Positions 2,974-14,976 of a DNA stretch of 15,503 nucleotides are shown here, in pieces. Below the pieces are notes generated by a model, which saw only the letters and a program-made list of their open reading frames with translations, ran no database searches and had not been told where the DNA came from. A program made the translations under genes and the position numbers. Each line of letters starts with the position of its first letter. Position 1 is the first letter of the stretch. The DNA is from a virus (Duplodnaviria > Heunggongvirae > Uroviricota > Caudoviricetes): the IMG/VR virus record IMGVR_UViG_2579778894_000014, positions 1 through 15,503 of that record. One strand, 5' to 3'.

Positions 2974-3396
2974 TTATGCCGCCGAGCAGCTCCTACGCAA
3001 AGTCCTGATAGCCTGAGGCTTTGACTGAACCGACTGATCCATTTCGAGCACCACATCCAGCATGGCTAAGCAACCGTCAATAAATCCCTCTGCCGCCTGA
3101 AGCCTCTTCAGAACGTGGGTGTGAGATACGCCGAGCTTCTCACCCATCGCCCGCACGGGCATGGCCTGGACGTAATGCCACTCAAGGAGCGTGCACAGAT
3201 ACGGATCTTTTTTCTTCAGGCAGCTCATAGCGGAGTTGATGATAAGACCGTCATTGTCACTGCATTTCAGCCTTCCAGACTGCGTCGCGGGTAGCAGATT
3301 CTTAAACCCGGCTGCAACAGGAGGAAAGTAGACGCTACCACCTTCACTCGCTGCCCAGCCACCCCAGCGCTCTAAAACCTGTTGAATATTACGCAT
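2974..3396 (-). CDS. Q: Late-gene antitermination protein Q (Phage_antitermQ family)
   Basis: 140 aa. N-terminus MRNIQQVLERWGGWAA...AAGFK and later KRLQAAEGFIDGCLAMLD resemble E. coli prophage Q proteins (QuuD-like) as I recall them. GAGGT SD upstream. Lies upstream of and co-directional with the lysis and packaging genes. Confidence 0.8.
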   Translation of the reverse strand: MRNIQQVLERWGGWAASEGGSVYFPPVAAGFKNLLPATQSGRLKCSDNDGLIINSAMSCLKKKDPYLCTLLEWHYVQAMPVRAMGEKLGVSHTHVLKRLQAAEGFIDGCLAMLDVVLEMDQSVQSKPQAIRTLRRSCSAA

Positions 3397-3672: not shown

Positions 3673-3721
3673 GTTGTTTACTCCAGCTAGTTATTTGCAA
3701 ATATTTGCAAGTTAATTTCCG

Positions 3722-3987
3722 GGTGACGGCTAGGTGACGCGTAATTACATATCCGTCACCTGCTGCAAAGCGCGCCATATAAAGCCTGAAGATGTTTTAG
3801 GTGACAGGTGACGGTTGATTTTAGTTCTATATATATATAAGCGATCGTATAATACCTAAAATACACACTCTCGCGTATATAGTTTTAAATTCTGCCGTCA
3901 CCTGTCACCTTTAGCACATTCCCCATTGTTTTATATATACTTTTTAAGGTGACGCTTAAGCGTTTTGCCGTCACCTAGCCGTCACCT
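3722..3987. repeat. Mirror-symmetric iteron array (10 GGTGAC/GTCACC hexamers) flanking an AT-rich core; candidate replication origin
   Basis: GGTGAC at 3722, 3733, 3800, 3807, 3948; GTCACC at 3755, 3897, 3904, 3970, 3981. Outer pairs are spaced 11 bp, inner pairs 7 bp, and all positions are mirror-symmetric about ~3854. The outer arms are near-perfect inverted repeats (GGTGACGGCTAGGTGACG). The centre 3814-3896 is AT-rich with a TATATATATA run. TTGCAA boxes at 3695-3710 and 4002-4017 flank the array. It lies immediately 3' of the replication-protein gene. Confidence 0.6.
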
Positions 3988-3989
3988 TT

Positions 3990-6251
3990 TTACAATCCAG
4001 ATTGCAAAATTTCGCAAGATTTATATATTTCGCGCAATTCTTCGTTGCTGAAATCGTTATTTTTTACAAGAATCCAAATCCTATATACAAACCCGTCAAT
4101 TTTTACGCGTACGGGTTCCCGCTTTGTTCTTTCTTTCAAAATGCGAGTAATATGCTTCTGGTTAATTTCTACATCCATTCCTGCTTCTGCCAGTATTGCG
4201 TTAACAATTTGTTGATAAGTCATTGCTGGCACAGGCGGATTATCCAGGATTTCAATAAGAGCAGCCTCCACATCGCTCTTATTGCTTTCAATCATCAGAA
4301 GGCGTTCTTTCGTCTCGGGGGCGCGCTGCCAGTTAAAGCGAGACAGGTCAACGCCCATTAGATACCAGTACACCTGGGCGATAAAGTCGCTGTCGCTTAG
4401 CGCACCGTACAGGCTGGCGTAATGCTCTTCAGTTGCGGCGAAGTCAGGGCCCCCCAGCACAGCTATACGTCGGTCTTCCTCTGGCAGCGCCAGCGCATCA
4501 AAGTGGTTGGTGTAGAACAGAAAGCCGGTGTATATATCCATCGTTTTTTTGCTGCCATATTTGCGGTTCACTTCAAACCGTGGTTCTGTCAGCACGTCAC
4601 GGATCTTATCGTTCACCTCATACCGCTTATCGTTTTCGCGCACCTCGTCAATGGTGCATAGAAGTGTATTGTACAGATAGTCATGGAACTGGTTATCGCA
4701 CAGGATCTTCATGCGAGTACGAGCACAGTTCCACGGGCCAAGCACGCGCTCCATTAACTGACTGACCCATCCTCTGCCCGTACCATGTGCGGTAGCCACA
4801 TGCAGAATAGAAATCGGGCATCGACGCTCCGGACGCTGAACCATCCACCCCAGACGGGCGATGAAAAACTCGCGCTGCCAGGCATCAGGTACCAGATACG
4901 CCATATGATTAAGGAACGTGGACACCTTACTTGTATCCGCTGTACGTGGATGCTCAGGCATATAAAATTCGTTTATCTCAAACCGCCCGTCGAAACGCTC
5001 GATAATACGTCCCGCACCGGGCTTATAGCCTGTCGTCTCAGCAATCTTCTTATGCCGATGCTCTATCCACCGTTTGGTTGCGGGAGTTGGTTGTCCTTTC
5101 CCTTCTGGCGGGAACTGGTAAGGCGCCATCAGGTTTTTGAACGACTTCATATCCATCATGCACTGATATGGCGGTCGGCTAAGATCACATACCTGGTCAC
5201 CCTCGATGACGTAGATAAAGCGTTCCAGAAAATGAGCTGTCATATCTGTATTAATATCGGTAAATTCAGGCTTATCGCCATCTTCAGCCACCGTGAGATC
5301 TTCGAACAGGGATTGCGTATAGCCGTAGCCTTCCAGCCAGTCGGCATCAGTAAGCCCCGCATCGGTGTTGTGCATGCTTTTAAAATGTCCCTGTTCAAAT
5401 CCCCCCGTCCCTTTTGGGAAATACTTAATGGATGTTTCGCTGCAACCGTTGCTGTATTCTGACTCATCCCGAAACGGTTTCAGATTGCGGGAACCATCAG
5501 AGCTGACTGACAGAGTCCACCCGTTCGCGTCAAGCCAGTCGGCGACATCATCTGTCGCGGAAGGATCAACACAGGAAAGGTCACGCTGACGTCCTGCACC
5601 TGCGGTATAGCTGTCTTTCACGGGTAAGTTATCCGCCAGACGCTGCCACAGGCTTTCGAGCTGTTCAGATGTAATTTTCAGAGGTTCGCCGGGCAAACCG
5701 CTGTCCCACTGAATACGTTCGCCTGCCGGATGGGTACCACAAGCCACAAACTGCTGGCCCTTAGCGAGCAGCTCTATTTGTTTGTTTTCGCCTTCCAGGC
5801 GGTGACCACGTTTACGGTAGTCGCCATCAACAGCAATCAGGTACAGGCATTTATGACTGTCAGCCCGCCAGCGACGTGGCGGAAGTTCCCCCAGGCATGA
5901 TAGGATAATATTGCGTACGATCTCCTGCATCCCGGCGTCATTGATATCGCAGTCCAGAGCCACCACCCCGTCGCCAGTACGAACGCAAATACCGTAATCG
6001 GGTTCGTTCGACCACCGGGCAAAATCGTTTTCCGTAACAACATAGTTAGCCCAGTCGGGGATACCAACAACCTTACGTTGGCCATTGTAGCGACTGGGGG
6101 TTTTGCCGAAATTATGAGACAGCTTGCTATTAGGCGACAGTTCTGCACAGGGATTGGACACCACAGGTAAAAGCCTGTCTGTCATCCCCAACACCAGATC
6201 GAAGTAGAACCACTCATCGGGCGTAGCTCCCCATGGTTTGTTATCAGACAT
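3990..6251 (-). CDS. Replication protein, primase-like (primase-polymerase-type N-terminal region; P4 alpha-like size and context)
   Basis: 753-aa ORF whose start overlaps the stop of the Cro-like gene, suggesting translational coupling. The N-terminal region contains VVALDCDI (a DxD-type catalytic-like motif) and GTHPAG. hhhhDE-like TIDEV is present in the C-terminal half. I could not find a canonical Walker A GxxxxGK[ST], so helicase activity is not supported from sequence. Iteron array lies immediately downstream. Confidence 0.65.
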   Translation of the reverse strand: MSDNKPWGATPDEWFYFDLVLGMTDRLLPVVSNPCAELSPNSKLSHNFGKTPSRYNGQRKVVGIPDWANYVVTENDFARWSNEPDYGICVRTGDGVVALDCDINDAGMQEIVRNIILSCLGELPPRRWRADSHKCLYLIAVDGDYRKRGHRLEGENKQIELLAKGQQFVACGTHPAGERIQWDSGLPGEPLKITSEQLESLWQRLADNLPVKDSYTAGAGRQRDLSCVDPSATDDVADWLDANGWTLSVSSDGSRNLKPFRDESEYSNGCSETSIKYFPKGTGGFEQGHFKSMHNTDAGLTDADWLEGYGYTQSLFEDLTVAEDGDKPEFTDINTDMTAHFLERFIYVIEGDQVCDLSRPPYQCMMDMKSFKNLMAPYQFPPEGKGQPTPATKRWIEHRHKKIAETTGYKPGAGRIIERFDGRFEINEFYMPEHPRTADTSKVSTFLNHMAYLVPDAWQREFFIARLGWMVQRPERRCPISILHVATAHGTGRGWVSQLMERVLGPWNCARTRMKILCDNQFHDYLYNTLLCTIDEVRENDKRYEVNDKIRDVLTEPRFEVNRKYGSKKTMDIYTGFLFYTNHFDALALPEEDRRIAVLGGPDFAATEEHYASLYGALSDSDFIAQVYWYLMGVDLSRFNWQRAPETKERLLMIESNKSDVEAALIEILDNPPVPAMTYQQIVNAILAEAGMDVEINQKHITRILKERTKREPVRVKIDGFVYRIWILVKNNDFSNEELREIYKSCEILQSGL

Positions 6252-6254
6252 GGG

Positions 6255-6455
6255 TTACGCCTTTTGTCTAGCTGTCACTTCCTGAAAAAGCTTTTCTATC
6301 GCACGTACTGTAGAAAAGCGAGGGTCAGAATGAACCCCGGTGAGAAGCCGACTAATAGAAGACTGCTTCACGCCTGCAATTTCGGCAATTTGGTTTTGGG
6401 TATACCCTGAATCAATCAAGCTTTTGACCATCTCTTGTGGTGTTAGTCCGGACAT
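6255..6455 (-). CDS. Cro-like HTH (XRE-family) DNA-binding protein
   Basis: 66 aa with helix-turn-helix signature QNQIAEIAGVKQSSISRLL. GGAGA SD 7 nt upstream. Divergent from the CI-type repressor across a 141-bp region and first gene of the rightward replication operon. Confidence 0.75.
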   Translation of the reverse strand: MSGLTPQEMVKSLIDSGYTQNQIAEIAGVKQSSISRLLTGVHSDPRFSTVRAIEKLFQEVTARQKA

Positions 6456-6596
6456 ATTTAAGTCTCCACTTTCGTCTATAGCGCAAATTTATACGAAAAC
6501 GGATTATTCAGCAATACAGCAATTCTATATCATCCTGTATTAAAATATCCGATAACGCATAATCACCGTCCCTGTATACAACATGGATGAATCCAA
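6456..6596. promoter_or_regulatory. Divergent operator/promoter region of the immunity switch (OR-like)
   Basis: 141-bp AT-rich region between the divergent cro-like and cI genes. Contains ATAACGCATAAT at 6552-6563, a motif repeated twice at the promoter downstream of cI. Candidate -10 TATAAA (complement of 6488-6493) and -35 TTGCTG (complement of 6509-6514) for the cro-side promoter, but spacing is only 15 bp, so the exact promoter is uncertain. Confidence 0.55.
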
Positions 6597-7271
6597 ATGA
6601 TTGATACTACCGATATCCTTTCTCAAAACATCAAGTACCTGATGGACAAAACCAAGATAAGCTCGATAACTGAGCTGGCACGTCGGTTACAGCTGAACCA
6701 ACCAACGCTACACAGGCTGGTATCAGGAGAGGTGAAAGATCCGAAATACGCAACGTTAAAGCAGATCGCCGACTACTTCCACGTGTCACCAATAGACCTG
6801 GCAGAAAGGAGCCTTCAAGAAATGGAGAAAGAGGACGCGACAGGTATAAAAACGTATATTTCTCTTAGGTTTAATAAAGTACCTGTTTTGGGAAACACTC
6901 AGCTAGGCGTTGGAGGACTTTGGAGCGACACCCAATATTCAGTAGGTAGCAGTGATGGTTTCATATACTGGCCGACAAAGGATGAAGATGCATACGCCCT
7001 GAAATGTGTTGGTGATTCAATGATGCCTAGAATCAAAGAGGGTGAGTTCGTAATCGTCGAACCCAACCACGACTACACTCCTGGTGATGAAGTACTTGTG
7101 GTTACCCGGGACGGTGAGGTCATGGTTAAAACCTTCTTGTTCGAACGCGATGGCCTGTTCCATCTAATATCTGTAAATGAAGATCATCCACCAGTCAGAG
7201 TACCACGCGAAAACATTGAAAAAATCCATTACGTGGCGGGGATCGCCAAATCCGCGCTACGCATGTACTAA
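6597..7271 (+). CDS. cI: CI-type prophage repressor (N-terminal HTH plus C-terminal LexA-like S24 peptidase domain)
   Basis: 224 aa. N-terminal HTH (ISSITELARRLQLNQPTLHRL). C-terminal CVGDSMMPRIKEGEFVIV with the GDSM serine nucleophile and a downstream VMVKTF lysine, typical of LexA/CI autocleaving repressors. Confidence 0.85.
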   Translation: MIDTTDILSQNIKYLMDKTKISSITELARRLQLNQPTLHRLVSGEVKDPKYATLKQIADYFHVSPIDLAERSLQEMEKEDATGIKTYISLRFNKVPVLGNTQLGVGGLWSDTQYSVGSSDGFIYWPTKDEDAYALKCVGDSMMPRIKEGEFVIVEPNHDYTPGDEVLVVTRDGEVMVKTFLFERDGLFHLISVNEDHPPVRVPRENIEKIHYVAGIAKSALRMY

Positions 7272-7301
7272 CCTTTACAGTCTGATAACTTACCTCTGAT
7301 C

Positions 7302-7335
7302 AAACCGCTCTCCACAAGGGCGGTTTTCTTATTTG
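7302..7335 (+). terminator. Intrinsic terminator after cI
   Basis: AAACCGC (7302-7308), 11-nt loop, GCGGTTT (7320-7326), followed by TCTTATTT. Confidence 0.5.
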
Positions 7336-7355
7336 CAAAATAATTCATTTTCGTA

Positions 7356-7384
7356 TTGACACAAAATCCCATAACGCATATAAA
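7356..7384 (+). promoter_or_regulatory. Strong sigma70-type promoter, pL-like early-left promoter, overlapped by operator-like repeats
   Basis: TTGACA (7356-7361), 17-bp spacer, TATAAA (7379-7384). ATAACGCATA (7371-7380) overlaps the spacer and -10, and ATACCGCATAAT (7389-7400) sits just downstream. Confidence 0.5.
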
Positions 7385-7420
7385 TACGATACCGCATAAT
7401 TAATGCATTTTCTAATACCA

Positions 7421-7432
7421 GCTCTTTAACAA
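7421..7432 (+). promoter_or_regulatory. boxA-like antitermination element in the early-left leader
   Basis: GCTCTTTAACAA matches the rrn/lambdoid boxA core (UGCUCUUUAACAA) as I recall it, about 30 nt downstream of the predicted transcription start. Confidence 0.45.
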
Positions 7433-7577
7433 ACAGAACCGCGTGACAGGTAAGCCGCAGTGCTCCTGGCAAAACGAAATAGCACCCGATGGGATCGAGG
7501 TAAGCGCCGAGTCCGTATGCGTACGGTAAGCGTAGAGGACAACACCGCGACGAACTGATAAGTCACGCAAGTTGAAA

Positions 7578-7606
7578 CGCCCCGATGATGGGGCGCTTAG
7601 TTCCTT
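7578..7606 (+). terminator. Hairpin with weak U-tract (possible leader terminator or pause site)
   Basis: CGCCCC-GATGAT-GGGGCG (6-bp stem) followed by CTTAGTTCCTTT. Confidence 0.3.
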
Positions 7607-7698
7607 TAACTCTGGGTGACCGGAAGGGTACCCATGCTTAAAGAAATTACTGGTTGTAAGGATCGTAATCCGTGATTGCCTTCCCCGGATTTTCATCT

Positions 7699-8217
7699 TC
7701 AGAAGGCAGTCGGGCCTCTAAAGCATTTCGGGTTGAACAGATAGGAAGCCCTACAGTACGAACAAACCATATTAACGACTCGCCCAAGGCCTGGCTTAGT
7801 AACCAGACCTTCCGCTTGCAATATAGATTTTCTCTTTTGCTCGTAGCAATTGGGACAAATATAAACCGGAGATTGGTCAGCATCTGCAGAAAGCTTGCTG
7901 CGATAGACCAGAGTACCCCGCATAGGCTGGTAAAGTTCATAGCTCGCCGCTTCAGCGGCCCAGTTCTCTTGCTTTACTTTCTCATTTTCCAGTTCAACAA
8001 TTTTCTCCTTAGCCGCAATCAGCAGCTCCTGAAGCGACATTTGCTGCATCTGAACATCCATTAGCTTATCGAGTAAGATGTGCGTCTTCTCTTTAACTGC
8101 ATAGTCGACAGTCAGATTCTGAATCTCTCTTGCTGCTCCAACCGCGCTTTTAATTGCTCCTCCCACACCGGATAACGATTCAGTTATCCGGGAAAGAATT
8201 CCTTTTTCTTCAGACAT
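7699..8217 (-). CDS. Hypothetical coiled-coil protein with C-terminal zinc-ribbon (CPNC...CSYC); cI-adjacent accessory gene
   Basis: 172-aa ORF on the strand opposite to the early-left transcript. Central heptad-like region (LQELLIAAKEKIVELENEKVKQENW) and C-terminal CxxC...CxxC. GAGAGA SD-like sequence upstream. Its promoter region carries two direct repeats ACTGTAGGGGT at 8234-8244 and 8268-8278. Confidence 0.65.
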   Translation of the reverse strand: MSEEKGILSRITESLSGVGGAIKSAVGAAREIQNLTVDYAVKEKTHILLDKLMDVQMQQMSLQELLIAAKEKIVELENEKVKQENWAAEAASYELYQPMRGTLVYRSKLSADADQSPVYICPNCYEQKRKSILQAEGLVTKPGLGRVVNMVCSYCRASYLFNPKCFRGPTAF

Positions 8218-8356
8218 ATCTAATCTCTCTCAAACTGTAGGGGTGAAGAGATATTAGACGATTTCTCACTGTAGGGGTACAAGGAGAACCACCTCGCCTG
8301 ATGTGGTTAAAAGCAGGCACTCGATGATATCCATGTAATTGCTGTGTGTAGTCTTT

Positions 8357-8382
8357 GCCCGCCGCAAGTGACGGGCTTTTTT
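8357..8382 (+). terminator. Intrinsic terminator on the plus strand upstream of the early-left genes
   Basis: GCCCG (8357-8361), 10-nt loop, CGGGC (8372-8376), followed by TTTTTT (8377-8382). Confidence 0.45.
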
Positions 8383-8420
8383 ATGTCTGAAAGCGCACTC
8401 GCAACAGCGTGCTCCCCGAT

Positions 8421-8591
8421 ATGAAAAAAGGAATACAACCGATGAAACCTGAACACATCCATCGACTGACGGGGCGCGATGTTCTCCGTTATCGCCGTAA
8501 AAACTTCGATTTGATGACCGGTCTGGCCGTTGCCACTGCGCTCGGTCTGATCATCACTTTCATTCTCCTTGTAGCGAGGACCACAGTATGA
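8421..8591 (+). CDS. Small membrane protein (single C-terminal TM helix)
   Basis: ATG at 8421 (the track used GTG at 8409); an alternative in-frame ATG at 8442 is preceded by AAGGA. C-terminal hydrophobic segment LAVATALGLIITFILLVA. Stop overlaps the next ATG (ATGA), suggesting coupling. Confidence 0.5.
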   Translation: MKKGIQPMKPEHIHRLTGRDVLRYRRKNFDLMTGLAVATALGLIITFILLVARTTV

Positions 8592-14214: not shown

Positions 14215-14976
14215 ATGCAGGAACTAACTGAAATGCCGATCACCTATCCATACCCGAGAGAAACTTTTCCTGACTTTTTGAGGGAGTGTGGGTTCACCAA
14301 TTTTTCCCACGAACAGCGTGAGACTTGTGACTGCTATCGTTTAACGAATGGCGTAATTGTTAACCTTTACACCACCCGGACCATTCAGTTTCAAGGTAAC
14401 CCTCAAGAACGTCCCAATGTTGAAACTGCAATAATGACCCATTTAGGAACGCCGCCCACGGCAACACCACTAGCCGTAGAACAGCCATCTGAGCTCCCCA
14501 AAAAGATATTCATTGTTCACGGCCATGACCATACTGCAAAGGAGCAACTTGAGCTAATCCTTCATAAACTTGGATTACCAGACCATTTCATTTTGCAGAA
14601 TACGGGAGGGACTGGACTCACCATTATTGAAGAGCTTGAACGTGAAATTGGGCAAGGACAAACTGCTACCCGTTTCGGGATTGTTCTTTTGACACCTGAT
14701 GATATGGGATACTCAAAGCGCGCCGGTGAAGCAGAAATCCAACCCCGCGCAAGACAGAACGTTGTACTCGAGATGGGTATGCTTCTTTCGTCCTTAGGGC
14801 GCAGCAATGTAGCAATCCTTCAGAAACAGCACCTAGAACAGCCTTCTGATGCTAACGGGATTTTGTATCTGAATTTCAACGACCATGTACGTGAAACAGT
14901 TCCTCGTCTAGTGCAACGGTTACAAAATTCTGGTTTCGAATTTACACAAGCTCAAATAGCTAACGCTTCCTCGTAA
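14215..14976 (+). CDS. Two-domain protein: unknown N-terminal domain plus C-terminal TIR-like Rossmannoid domain (CAP12/PycTIR-type family)
   Basis: 253-aa ORF with AAGGAA SD upstream; last gene of the operon before a strong terminator. The C-terminal ~150 aa contains KKIFIVHGHDH, GGTGLTIIEELE, FGIVLLTPDD and NVVLEMGMLLSSLG, which I recognise as the pattern of prokaryotic TIR-like nucleotide-binding domains (conserved Glu followed by Gly). The N-terminal ~95 aa has no recognised family. Domain assignment is from memory, not a search. Confidence 0.6.
   Translation: MQELTEMPITYPYPRETFPDFLRECGFTNFSHEQRETCDCYRLTNGVIVNLYTTRTIQFQGNPQERPNVETAIMTHLGTPPTATPLAVEQPSELPKKIFIVHGHDHTAKEQLELILHKLGLPDHFILQNTGGTGLTIIEELEREIGQGQTATRFGIVLLTPDDMGYSKRAGEAEIQPRARQNVVLEMGMLLSSLGRSNVAILQKQHLEQPSDANGILYLNFNDHVRETVPRLVQRLQNSGFEFTQAQIANASS

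What the first reader, a model, noticed from the sequence alone, without database searches (positions are those of the whole stretch)
7356..7610. pL-like promoter followed by a boxA-like sequence and a ~200-nt structured non-coding leader, with no N gene
A near-consensus promoter (TTGACA-N17-TATAAA) is followed ~30 nt downstream by GCTCTTTAACAA, essentially the boxA core. The next ~180 nt are GC-rich with no credible ORF, three GGTAAGC repeats (7449, 7499, 7525), a CCGTA-TGCG-TACGG hairpin (7510-7522) and a terminator-like hairpin at 7578-7595. No N-like gene follows the promoter on this strand. Either antitermination uses an RNA-based or host-factor mechanism, the region encodes a small regulatory RNA, or a trans-acting N homologue lies elsewhere.
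Basis: partly seen in the sequence, partly recalled or inferred. Interest (0 to 1): 0.55.

Follow-up and report, generated by a model that had tools for sequence, protein, structure and literature searches.

The report
Phage early-leader RNA with ribosomal boxA
Just after the repressor-controlled early promoter of this E. coli prophage lies a conserved, undescribed folded RNA that starts with the ribosomal-RNA "boxA" signal, sits where related phages carry a known anti-terminator RNA, and probably lets RNA polymerase read through stop signals without the usual phage N protein.

Summary
The core observation holds. A TTGACA-N17-TATAAA promoter (7356-7384) is embedded in operator-like repeats shared with the cI-cro intergenic region. 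About 30 nt downstream of the likely start lies an exact copy of the E. coli rrnB boxA (7421-7432).

boxA opens a sharply bounded 175-nt cassette (7421-7595). The cassette occurs in 104 of 5426 complete E. coli genomes and in E. coli, Enterobacter and Yersinia phages. It has at least 35 different upstream and 42 different downstream contexts, always downstream of a cI-like repressor.

It folds into a long irregular stem closing a three-way junction, plus a terminal hairpin. Covariation is strong: 28 of 41 pairs show compensatory changes against 12.1±1.9 in shuffles.

It matches no Rfam family and is not homologous to HK022 or HK639 put RNA. In one lambdoid prophage it replaces exactly the put stems of HK639 between homologous flanks. 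No N-like gene is present.

The 7578-7595 hairpin is a conserved helix, not a terminator.

Best reading (confidence about 0.55): a self-contained, cis-acting, Nus-factor-dependent antitermination leader. Function is inferred, not shown.

The parts
6491..6561 (.). Operator-like sites in the cI-cro intergenic region (6491-6504 on the minus strand, 6547-6560 on the plus strand).
   Evidence: Repeat family D1 and inverted pair I1 link this region to the promoter at 7356. The motif ATNCNNTNNCGYAT gives 6 hits in the window, all here or at 7343-7397, against 0.30 expected. The motif was derived from these same sites.
6597..7271 (+). CI-like repressor gene (HTH plus S24 peptidase), on the same strand as the leader.
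   Evidence: phrog_4 transcriptional repressor, E = 3e-35. Annotated as repressor or LexA family in relatives.
7302..7326 (+). Intrinsic terminator ending the repressor transcript.
   Evidence: Terminator scan: 10-bp stem followed by TCTTATTT.
7340..7398 (+). Three operator-like sites overlapping the -35 and -10 hexamers (7343-7356, 7366-7379, 7384-7397).
7356..7384 (+). pL-like sigma-70 promoter: TTGACA, 17-nt spacer, TATAAA. The start site is inferred near 7391.
   Evidence: Sequence. A promoter-like -35/-10 pair lies just upstream of the cassette in many of the other immunity contexts.
7421..7432 (+). boxA (GCUCUUUAACAA). This is the first base of the conserved cassette.
   Evidence: Exact and unique in the window. 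Identical to rrnB boxA. Nearly invariant across 64 variants, while the sequence upstream is unrelated.
7441..7568 (+). Structured domain.
- Long stem: P1 7441-7447/7562-7568; P1b 7449-7451/7554-7556; P1c 7456-7462/7543-7549; P1d 7464-7467/7536-7539.
- Conserved A-rich junction strand GGCAAAACGAAAUAGC at 7468-7483.
- Hairpin P3 at 7484-7501.
- P4 7504-7507/7530-7533, enclosing P5 at 7513-7526.
- Conserved AGAGGA at 7534-7539.
   Evidence: Also found as the minimum-free-energy fold. Covariation on 34 close variants and on 49 model-aligned sequences. An independent RNAalifold run recovers the main helices. Distant homologues keep the helices with different sequence.
7578..7595 (+). Terminal hairpin P6 (CGCCCC-GAUGAU-GGGGCG). 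It is the last element of the E. coli-type cassette and is not a terminator.
   Evidence: Compensatory changes such as GCCUC/GAGGC in L085. No U tract. Absent or replaced in L410, L404 and L375.
7699..8217 (-). Variable insert: a convergent 172-aa gene (phrog_1244, ECs_2282-like zinc-binding protein) lying between the leader and the early genes.
   Evidence: Absent in L003 and replaced by another gene in L005.
8357..8386 (+). Strong RprA-type intrinsic terminator that a pL transcript must cross to reach the early genes starting at 8409.
   Evidence: Rfam alignment of the terminator helix plus U tract. The same terminator precedes the early genes in L003.

Best explanation
The 175-nt cassette at 7421-7595 is a self-contained, cis-acting processive antitermination leader of the phage's repressor-controlled early promoter. 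It is a functional counterpart of lambda nutL+N and of HK022/HK639 putL, but of a different and undescribed RNA family.

Proposed course of events:
1. When the CI-like repressor is inactivated, RNA polymerase starts near 7391.
2. The nascent boxA (7421-7432) recruits NusB-NusE (S10), and with them NusG, NusA and probably SuhB, as happens on rRNA leaders.
3. The 128-nt three-way-junction domain that follows folds co-transcriptionally. Held at the RNA exit channel by the boxA-Nus tether, it contacts the elongation complex, taking the part played by N-boxB in lambda or by the put stems in HK022.
4. The modified polymerase resists Rho over the roughly 1 kb of untranslated or antisense RNA. It reads through the RprA-type terminator at 8357-8386 into the replication and recombination genes (8409 onward).

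Shown: the promoter and operator architecture, the exact boxA, a conserved covarying structure, the cassette's portability, its allelic position with putL, the absence of an N-like gene, and a terminator in the path.

Inferred: transcription start, Nus binding, contact with the polymerase, and antitermination itself.
For: 1. The promoter sits in operator-like repeats shared with the cI-cro region, so it is a pL analogue.
2. boxA is identical to rrnB boxA and fits the functional consensus GYTCTTTAANA.
3. Conservation begins exactly at boxA and ends at P6. There are at least 35 unrelated upstream and 42 unrelated downstream contexts, always downstream of a cI-like repressor on the same strand.
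4. Structure: 97.7% of cells are paired against 27-45% when partners are slid. 28 of 41 pairs carry compensatory changes against 12.1±1.9 in shuffles, 0 of 500 shuffles reaching the observed value. The close-variant set gives the same signal, and an unfitted RNAalifold run recovers the main helices.
5. In L002 the left flank is 76% and the right flank 98% identical to HK639. The 442 nt holding the cassette replace the 92 nt of HK639 that include the annotated putL-like stems.
6. No N-like family is found in the window or in L002. The related phage genome annotates only Q.
7. A strong terminator lies between the leader and the early genes in the window and in L003, and another lies inside the L002 early operon.
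8. There is one copy per phage, on the pL side only.
Against: - There are no expression or functional data.
- Thermodynamic stability is not above shuffled controls (z = +0.37).
- boxA alone could account for Rho resistance, leaving the structured domain with some other role.
- The Enterobacter variant has a degenerate boxA, GCTCATTAAGAA.
- Two variants (L065, L117) lack P4-P5 and the Yersinia version has a single hairpin there, so part of the domain is dispensable.
- In many contexts a gene starts about 80-150 nt after the cassette, so a long untranslated stretch is not general.
- boxA-Nus complexes can also promote Rho termination, as at suhB.
Confidence: 0.55

Rival explanations
1. The two parts have separate jobs. 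boxA alone protects the leader from Rho, as in rRNA and CRISPR-array leaders. The structured domain is a distinct functional RNA: for example a stable small RNA cut out of the leader with P1 and P6 as protective ends, or a sensor (riboswitch-like or protein-binding) that tunes early expression.
For: - boxA suffices for anti-Rho activity in other systems.
- The domain is closed by a long stem and flanked by a stable hairpin, which would suit a processed RNA.
- The junction strands GGCAAAACGAAAUAGC and AGAGGA are conserved even where all helices have changed, as in ligand- or protein-binding cores.
Against: - boxA and the domain always travel together at a fixed spacing of about 8 nt.
- There is no intrinsic terminator to define a small RNA.
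- The cassette replaces a proven antiterminator at the same site.
- No Rfam family, riboswitch or otherwise, matches.
Confidence: 0.22
2. It is an unusual nut site. boxA plus the structured domain or the P6 hairpin is bound by an unrecognised phage-encoded antiterminator protein made elsewhere in the genome.
For: - Lambda-type systems pair boxA with an RNA hairpin bound by N.
- P6 is a 5-6 bp GC stem reminiscent of boxB. The L388 version reads GCCCUGAACAUCGGGG.
- Many small proteins of unknown function lie in these early regions.
Against: - The cassette is found on at least three unrelated early-operon backbones and with 35 upstream and 42 downstream contexts, with no consistently linked gene.
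- No arginine-rich N-like protein was detected.
- P6 is missing in some members and lies 145 nt from boxA rather than about 10 nt.
Confidence: 0.13
3. It is a decayed gene remnant, or a minus-strand coding region (the 94-aa ORF at 7412-7696), with no RNA function.
For: An ATG-initiated 94-aa ORF abuts the upstream gene on the minus strand. Some annotation pipelines call a hypothetical protein here.
Against: - The ORF has no family match and an odd composition.
- It runs into a flank that differs between loci.
- Indels of 1-2 nt occur among close variants.
- Substitutions are compensatory in helices.
Confidence: 0.03

Closest known systems
put RNAs of phages HK022 and HK639 (cis-acting antiterminator RNAs; PMC9378689; GenBank HM208537 annotation)
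   Same: - A promoter-proximal structured RNA in the pL leader of temperate phages that lack N.
- Self-contained, in one copy on the left-operon side, as annotated for HK639.
- In L002 the cassette occupies exactly the site of the HK639 put stems, between homologous flanks.
   Different: - No sequence or structure homology: model R1 finds nothing in HK022 or HK639 at E up to 1.
- put is about 70 nt with two stem-loops, has no boxA, and acts without dedicated trans-acting protein factors (PMC9378689).
- This element is 150-175 nt, has a three-way junction, and begins with an rrn-type boxA.
Lambda nutL/nutR with N protein
   Same: boxA near the start of the early leader. The pL position downstream of cI on the same strand. 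A GC-rich hairpin within the element. Presumed use of NusB/NusE.
   Different: - There is no boxB-type hairpin about 10 nt after boxA. P6 is 145 nt away and has a 6-nt GAUGAU loop.
- No N gene follows.
- The boxA is the rrn form, not the lambda form CGCUCUUA (the lambda sequence is from my own knowledge).
rRNA-operon leader antitermination (boxB-boxA-boxC; complex of NusA/B/E/G, SuhB and S4)
   Same: The 12-nt boxA is identical. A small hairpin lies just upstream of boxA, as boxB does in rrn. Only host factors are needed. L002-type leaders also share AUCAGAC just after boxA with rrnB (this is weak evidence).
   Different: No boxC. boxA is followed by a specific covarying junction domain with no similarity to the 16S leader. 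The setting is a phage early promoter.
boxA in CRISPR-array and suhB leaders (PMC7665894, PMC5725501)
   Same: A consensus boxA placed early in a transcript outside rRNA, where it governs Rho action.
   Different: Those elements are boxA alone. Here boxA is fused to a conserved 128-nt structured domain and moves with it as one cassette.

Membership tests
put antiterminator RNA (HK022/HK639 type) | Sequence and structure homology to the two put stem-loops | tested here: not met
   The covariance model of the cassette gives no match in HK639 or HK022 at E up to 1. The sequences read side by side are unrelated apart from short GTAAAC-like words.
put antiterminator RNA (HK022/HK639 type) | Located just downstream of the early promoter pL, upstream of the early-left genes | tested here: met
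   Allelic with HK639 putL in L002.
put antiterminator RNA (HK022/HK639 type) | Acts in cis on RNA polymerase through the beta-prime zinc-binding domain, without dedicated trans-acting protein factors | not testable with these tools
   Needs genetics or biochemistry. The presence of a boxA argues for Nus involvement, which would be a difference from put.
Lambda-type nut site | boxA matching the consensus | tested here: met
   GCTCTTTAACAA at 7421-7432 fits GYTCTTTAANA.
Lambda-type nut site | boxB hairpin a few nucleotides downstream of boxA | tested here: not met
   boxA is followed after about 8 nt by the 5' strand of the long-range helix P1. The only simple hairpin, P6, is 145 nt away and is absent in some members.
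Lambda-type nut site | Cognate N-like arginine-rich protein encoded in the phage | tested here: not met
   No N family hit among the window or L002 proteins. The related phage annotates only Q. A highly divergent N cannot be excluded.
Nus-factor boxA target (rrn type) | Exact match to the functional boxA consensus in a transcribed leader | tested here: met
   Identical to rrnB boxA. It lies about 30 nt after the inferred start. Transcription itself is inferred.
Nus-factor boxA target (rrn type) | Binding of NusB-NusE and recruitment of SuhB | not testable with these tools
   Requires ChIP or in vitro binding.
Intrinsic terminator (claimed for 7578-7595) | GC-rich hairpin followed directly by a U tract | tested here: not met
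   Followed by CUUAGUUCC in the window and by variable sequence in relatives. Not called by the scan.
Any Rfam 15 family | Score at or above the family's gathering threshold, or any match with E up to 10, over 7421-7595 | tested here: not met
   No match at gathering thresholds over the whole window. No match overlapping 7421-7595 among the E up to 10 hits over 7250-8450.
Conserved structured non-coding RNA | Base pairs maintained by compensatory substitutions across homologues; no conserved reading frame | tested here: met
   for covariation. Frame-breaking indels among close variants.
Independent small-RNA gene | Own promoter and own terminator defining a discrete transcript | tested here: inconclusive
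   The promoter is present. There is no intrinsic terminator at the 3' end. Processing cannot be tested here.

The most novel reading that the evidence does not exclude
The cassette is an RNA-only substitute for the N protein. A portable leader uses an rRNA-type boxA to load the host Nus/rRNA antitermination machinery. It then uses its own conserved three-way-junction domain to convert that machinery into a complex that also ignores intrinsic terminators. This would be a third, hybrid solution to early antitermination in temperate phages, between protein-based nut/N and factor-independent put. Because it needs only host factors, its activity might report host growth state and feed into the lysis-lysogeny decision.
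Probability: 0.35. Interest if true: 0.85.

Novelty: new variant of a known kind. Interest (0 to 1): 0.66.

Why it matters
Early antitermination in temperate phages is a textbook system with two known solutions: N protein with nut sites, and put RNA. A widespread third element would show that phages can hijack the host's ribosomal-RNA antitermination machine with RNA alone. This one has an rRNA-type boxA fused to a covarying RNA domain, has no N, and is interchangeable with put at the same locus.

It would give structural biologists a natural RNA that reprograms the Nus complex. It would also give a compact 175-nt part for building terminator-proof transcription units.

For annotation, it supplies a candidate early antitermination element for prophages, present in about 2% of complete E. 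coli genomes, in which no N gene was detected. It also argues against the 'hypothetical protein' calls made over this region.

Tried and rejected
- **Rfam.** Gathering thresholds over the whole window and E up to 10 over 7250-8450 gave nothing for the cassette.
- **Homology to put RNA.** Model R1 against HK639 and HK022 found no hit.
- **Thermodynamic test.** Not significant on the + strand (z = +0.37). The minus strand scored slightly better (z = -1.58). This test is uninformative here.
- **Minus-strand 94-aa ORF as a real gene.** Rejected: no family match, and frame-breaking indels among close variants.
- **Local hairpin CAGG..CCUG instead of the long stem.** Rejected, because L388, L372, L383 and YeP4 replace both strands of the long-range helices with new complementary sequences.
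- **GGTAAGC as a protein-binding repeat.** Rejected. The count is at chance level, the repeat is not conserved in distant members, and it is explained by helix ends plus the self-complementary GCGC. It does mediate a 26-nt deletion in L065 and L117.
- **mEpimmI Nus-dependent phages with the N-like Gp17 (PMC11893012).** They use a different system, an N-like protein with nut sites. No sequence comparison with this window was made.
- **Genome-contig scan.** The pattern was too loose and returned almost only chance hits, so the species range from that collection is unknown.
- **King 2011 paper on HK639 put.** It could not be read. What I say about it rests on the GenBank annotation and my own knowledge.
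- **Full-text search for the sequence.** No hits.

Full report
**Setting**

The window is part of an E. coli prophage. It is 100% identical over the tested stretch to E. coli O55:H7 DEC5E and 97.8% identical to phage vB_EcoM-606R2, ON470579.

Gene content:
- On the minus strand: a cro-like gene (6255-6455), a primase (3990-6251), a Q-like antiterminator (2974-3396), lysis genes and terminase.
- On the plus strand: a CI-like HTH/S24 repressor (6597-7271) ending in an intrinsic terminator (7302-7326), then the region in question.
- Next comes a convergent 172-aa gene (7699-8217, minus strand).
- Then an RprA-like element with a strong terminator (8273-8386).
- Then plus-strand early genes from 8409: a DUF2800-type exonuclease, a Gp2.5-like SSB, a DNA polymerase and a TIR-domain protein.

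The geometry is that of lambda. The promoter lies downstream of cI, on the same strand, and points into an early 'left' operon.

**Checking the observation**

- The boxA is unique in the window. It is identical to the rrnB boxA of E. coli K-12 and fits the functional consensus GYTCTTTAANA (PMC5725501).
- An 18-nt operator-like repeat occurs three times over the promoter and twice in the cI-cro intergenic region. The derived motif ATNCNNTNNCGYAT hits only these two places, with 6 hits against 0.30 expected. The motif is post hoc, but the restriction to the two regulatory regions is telling. The promoter is therefore plausibly repressor-controlled, a true pL analogue.
- The small hairpin is at 7513-7526, not 7510-7522.
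- The 7578-7595 hairpin has no U tract and is not terminator-like.
- The fold is not more stable than shuffles (z = +0.37).
- A 94-aa minus-strand ORF overlaps the region but has no family match.

**A portable cassette**

BLAST against 5426 complete E. coli genomes found the region in 104 of them. Many matches cover only query positions 92-266, that is 7421-7595.

Aligning five loci shows that conservation begins exactly at boxA and ends at the terminal hairpin, with unrelated sequence on both sides.

Pattern scans of viral contigs, followed by BLAST and nhmmer, gave about 110 loci and 64 distinct variants. More distant members are:
- L375, L410, L377, L389, L404 and L345.
- L388 and L372.
- Enterobacter phages BHUENT6 and ENT1.
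- L383.
- Yersinia phages YeP4-6.

The cassette has at least 35 different upstream promoter or immunity contexts and 42 different downstream contexts. In the fourteen diverse loci whose flanks I inspected, it lies downstream of a cI-like repressor on the same strand, with a divergent cro-like gene beyond. There is one copy per phage.

**Structure**

The minimum-free-energy fold and hand comparison of distant members suggested this model:
- boxA, then about 8 nt of linker.
- A long irregular stem made of P1, P1b, P1c and P1d.
- That stem closes a junction formed by a conserved A-rich strand (GGCAAAACGAAAUAGC), hairpin P3, the composite hairpin P4-P5, and the conserved AGAGGA.
- A linker, then hairpin P6.

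Tests of the model:
- On 34 close variants, 98.5% of cells pair. Eight pairs carry double changes against 2.7±1.2 in shuffles.
- After building covariance model R1 and aligning 49 sequences to it, 97.7% of cells pair, against 27-45% when partners are slid. 28 of 41 pairs carry compensatory changes against 12.1±1.9, with 0 of 500 shuffles reaching that. That alignment is fitted to the model.
- As an independent check, MAFFT plus RNAalifold on 14 diverse sequences recovered P1, P1c, P1d, outer P3 and P4, with 13 covarying pairs.

The most persuasive cases are visible by eye:
- P1 is GCGUGAC/GUCACGC in the window, GAGUGAC/GUCACUC in L002, GCAUGAC/GUCAUGC in L375 and AGCAAC/GUUGCU in L388.
- P3 is CGAU/AUCG, GCGA/UCGC, GGUA/UACC or CAAU/AUUG, always with the same bulged A.

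Other points:
- Indels of 1-2 nt among close variants rule out coding.
- P4-P5 is deleted in two variants and reduced to a single hairpin in the Yersinia and L383 versions. P6 is missing in some members. The invariant core is therefore boxA, the long stem and the junction strands.
- The GGTAAGC repeats are helix ends plus a UAA linker and are not kept in distant members.

**What it is not**

- No Rfam 15 family matches.
- R1 finds nothing in HK022 or HK639, so it is not a put homologue.
- R1 gave only two borderline hits in about 1.55 Mb of unrelated viral loci. One of them, L383, is a true divergent member.
- No N-like protein is detected in the window or in L002.
- The related complete phage annotates only a Q antiterminator.

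**The key comparative result**

Prophage L002 (E. coli ABWA45) is a lambdoid with cro, cI, gam and bet.
- Its pL leader is 76% identical to that of phage HK639, and its downstream DNA is 98% identical.
- The 442 nt containing the cassette (L002 2983-3424) replace HK639 34335-34244.
- That HK639 stretch includes the 5' stems of the feature annotated 'putL-like antiterminator RNA'.

Two different RNAs thus occupy the same slot in otherwise homologous leaders, and for one of them antitermination is annotated in GenBank and was reported experimentally (King 2011, from my own knowledge; the paper could not be read).

Serratia phage BZS1 carries the same leader and boxA, followed by yet another stem-closed domain. 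This suggests a broader class of 'boxA plus structured domain' leaders.

**Mechanism**

In the window, a pL transcript must cross about 1 kb with no plus-strand gene. That stretch includes the antisense of a convergent gene and an RprA-type terminator at 8357-8386. Only then does it reach the first early gene at 8409. The same terminator precedes the early genes in L003, and a terminator lies inside the L002 early operon.

The only established role of boxA is recruitment of NusB/NusE and the Nus complex, which blocks Rho on rRNA and CRISPR transcripts.

The best-supported reading is therefore a cis-acting, host-factor-dependent, N-independent processive antitermination leader. I infer that the structured domain supplies what N-boxB or the put stems supply elsewhere. 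None of this is shown experimentally.

Rivals:
- boxA acts alone and the domain has a separate role as a processed small RNA or a sensor.
- The cassette is a nut-like site for an unrecognised protein. This is disfavoured by the cassette's portability.
- It is a gene remnant. This is excluded by covariation and indels.

**Novelty**

A 2025 review of Rho regulation lists only nut/N, rrn, put, RARE and RNAP-binding aptamers. Full-text searches for related terms and for the sequence itself found nothing.

I class it as a new variant of a known kind: a phage early-leader antitermination element. It belongs to an undescribed RNA family that combines features of rrn/nut (boxA) and put (RNA-only, no N).

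Noticed in passing
window 8273-8386 (+): RprA-like element. The 3' half (AATTGCTGTGTGTAGTCTTTGCCC plus a terminator of the same architecture) is identical to E. coli K-12 RprA, while the 5' half is unrelated. The Rfam RprA score is 47.5 bits, below the gathering score of 70. The same 3' block and terminator precede the early genes in L003. It may be a phage-borne mimic of the RprA seed and terminator.
   Followed up: partly
window about 3700-4000 (between the primase gene and the 76-aa ORF): A dense set of GGTGACGG / CCGTCACC iterons flanking an AT-rich block. This is probably the replication origin served by the adjacent primase.
   Followed up: no
L002 3187-3213; L003 3187-3212; L383 6908-6932; also L404, L213, L375, L389 and L345: In lambdoid-type contexts the cassette is followed within about 20-60 nt by a strong Shine-Dalgarno sequence. 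It precedes either a three-codon mini-ORF (ATG AAG NNN TAA, or ATG CAC AAG TAA) or a bare start-stop (ATG TAA / ATG TAG). The feature recurs in about 10 different downstream contexts. Its meaning is unknown.
   Followed up: partly
L414 4019-4150 (Serratia phage vB_SspM_BZS1): This phage has the same pL leader and boxA as the L375 group. However, boxA is followed by a different domain closed by a 9-bp stem (GUCACCCAG...CUGGGUGAC), which model R1 does not recognise. It is possibly a sister class of boxA-linked leader RNA.
   Followed up: partly
window 14215-14976 (+): The early operon encodes a protein with a CAP12/Pycsar-effector-type TIR domain (Pfam PF10137, E = 3e-31). A TIR domain in a phage early operon might act in defence or counter-defence.
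   Followed up: no
window 7647-8217 (-): The convergent gene is 172 aa here (stop at 7699), but it is annotated as 189 aa (equivalent to 7647-8216) in phage vB_EcoM-606R2 and in strain RIVM_C029670. This indicates a frameshift or an altered stop in one lineage.
   Followed up: no
window 8234-8244 and 8268-8278: An exact 11-nt direct repeat, ACTGTAGGGGT, occurs twice, 34 nt apart. It lies in the divergent control region between the 172-aa gene and the RprA-like element and is possibly a regulator binding site.
   Followed up: no
L415 3031-3050 (Enterobacter phage BHUENT6): This family member has a degenerate boxA (GCTCATTAAGAA) while keeping the structured domain (67 bits with R1). boxA may be dispensable or differently recognised in that lineage.
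   Followed up: no
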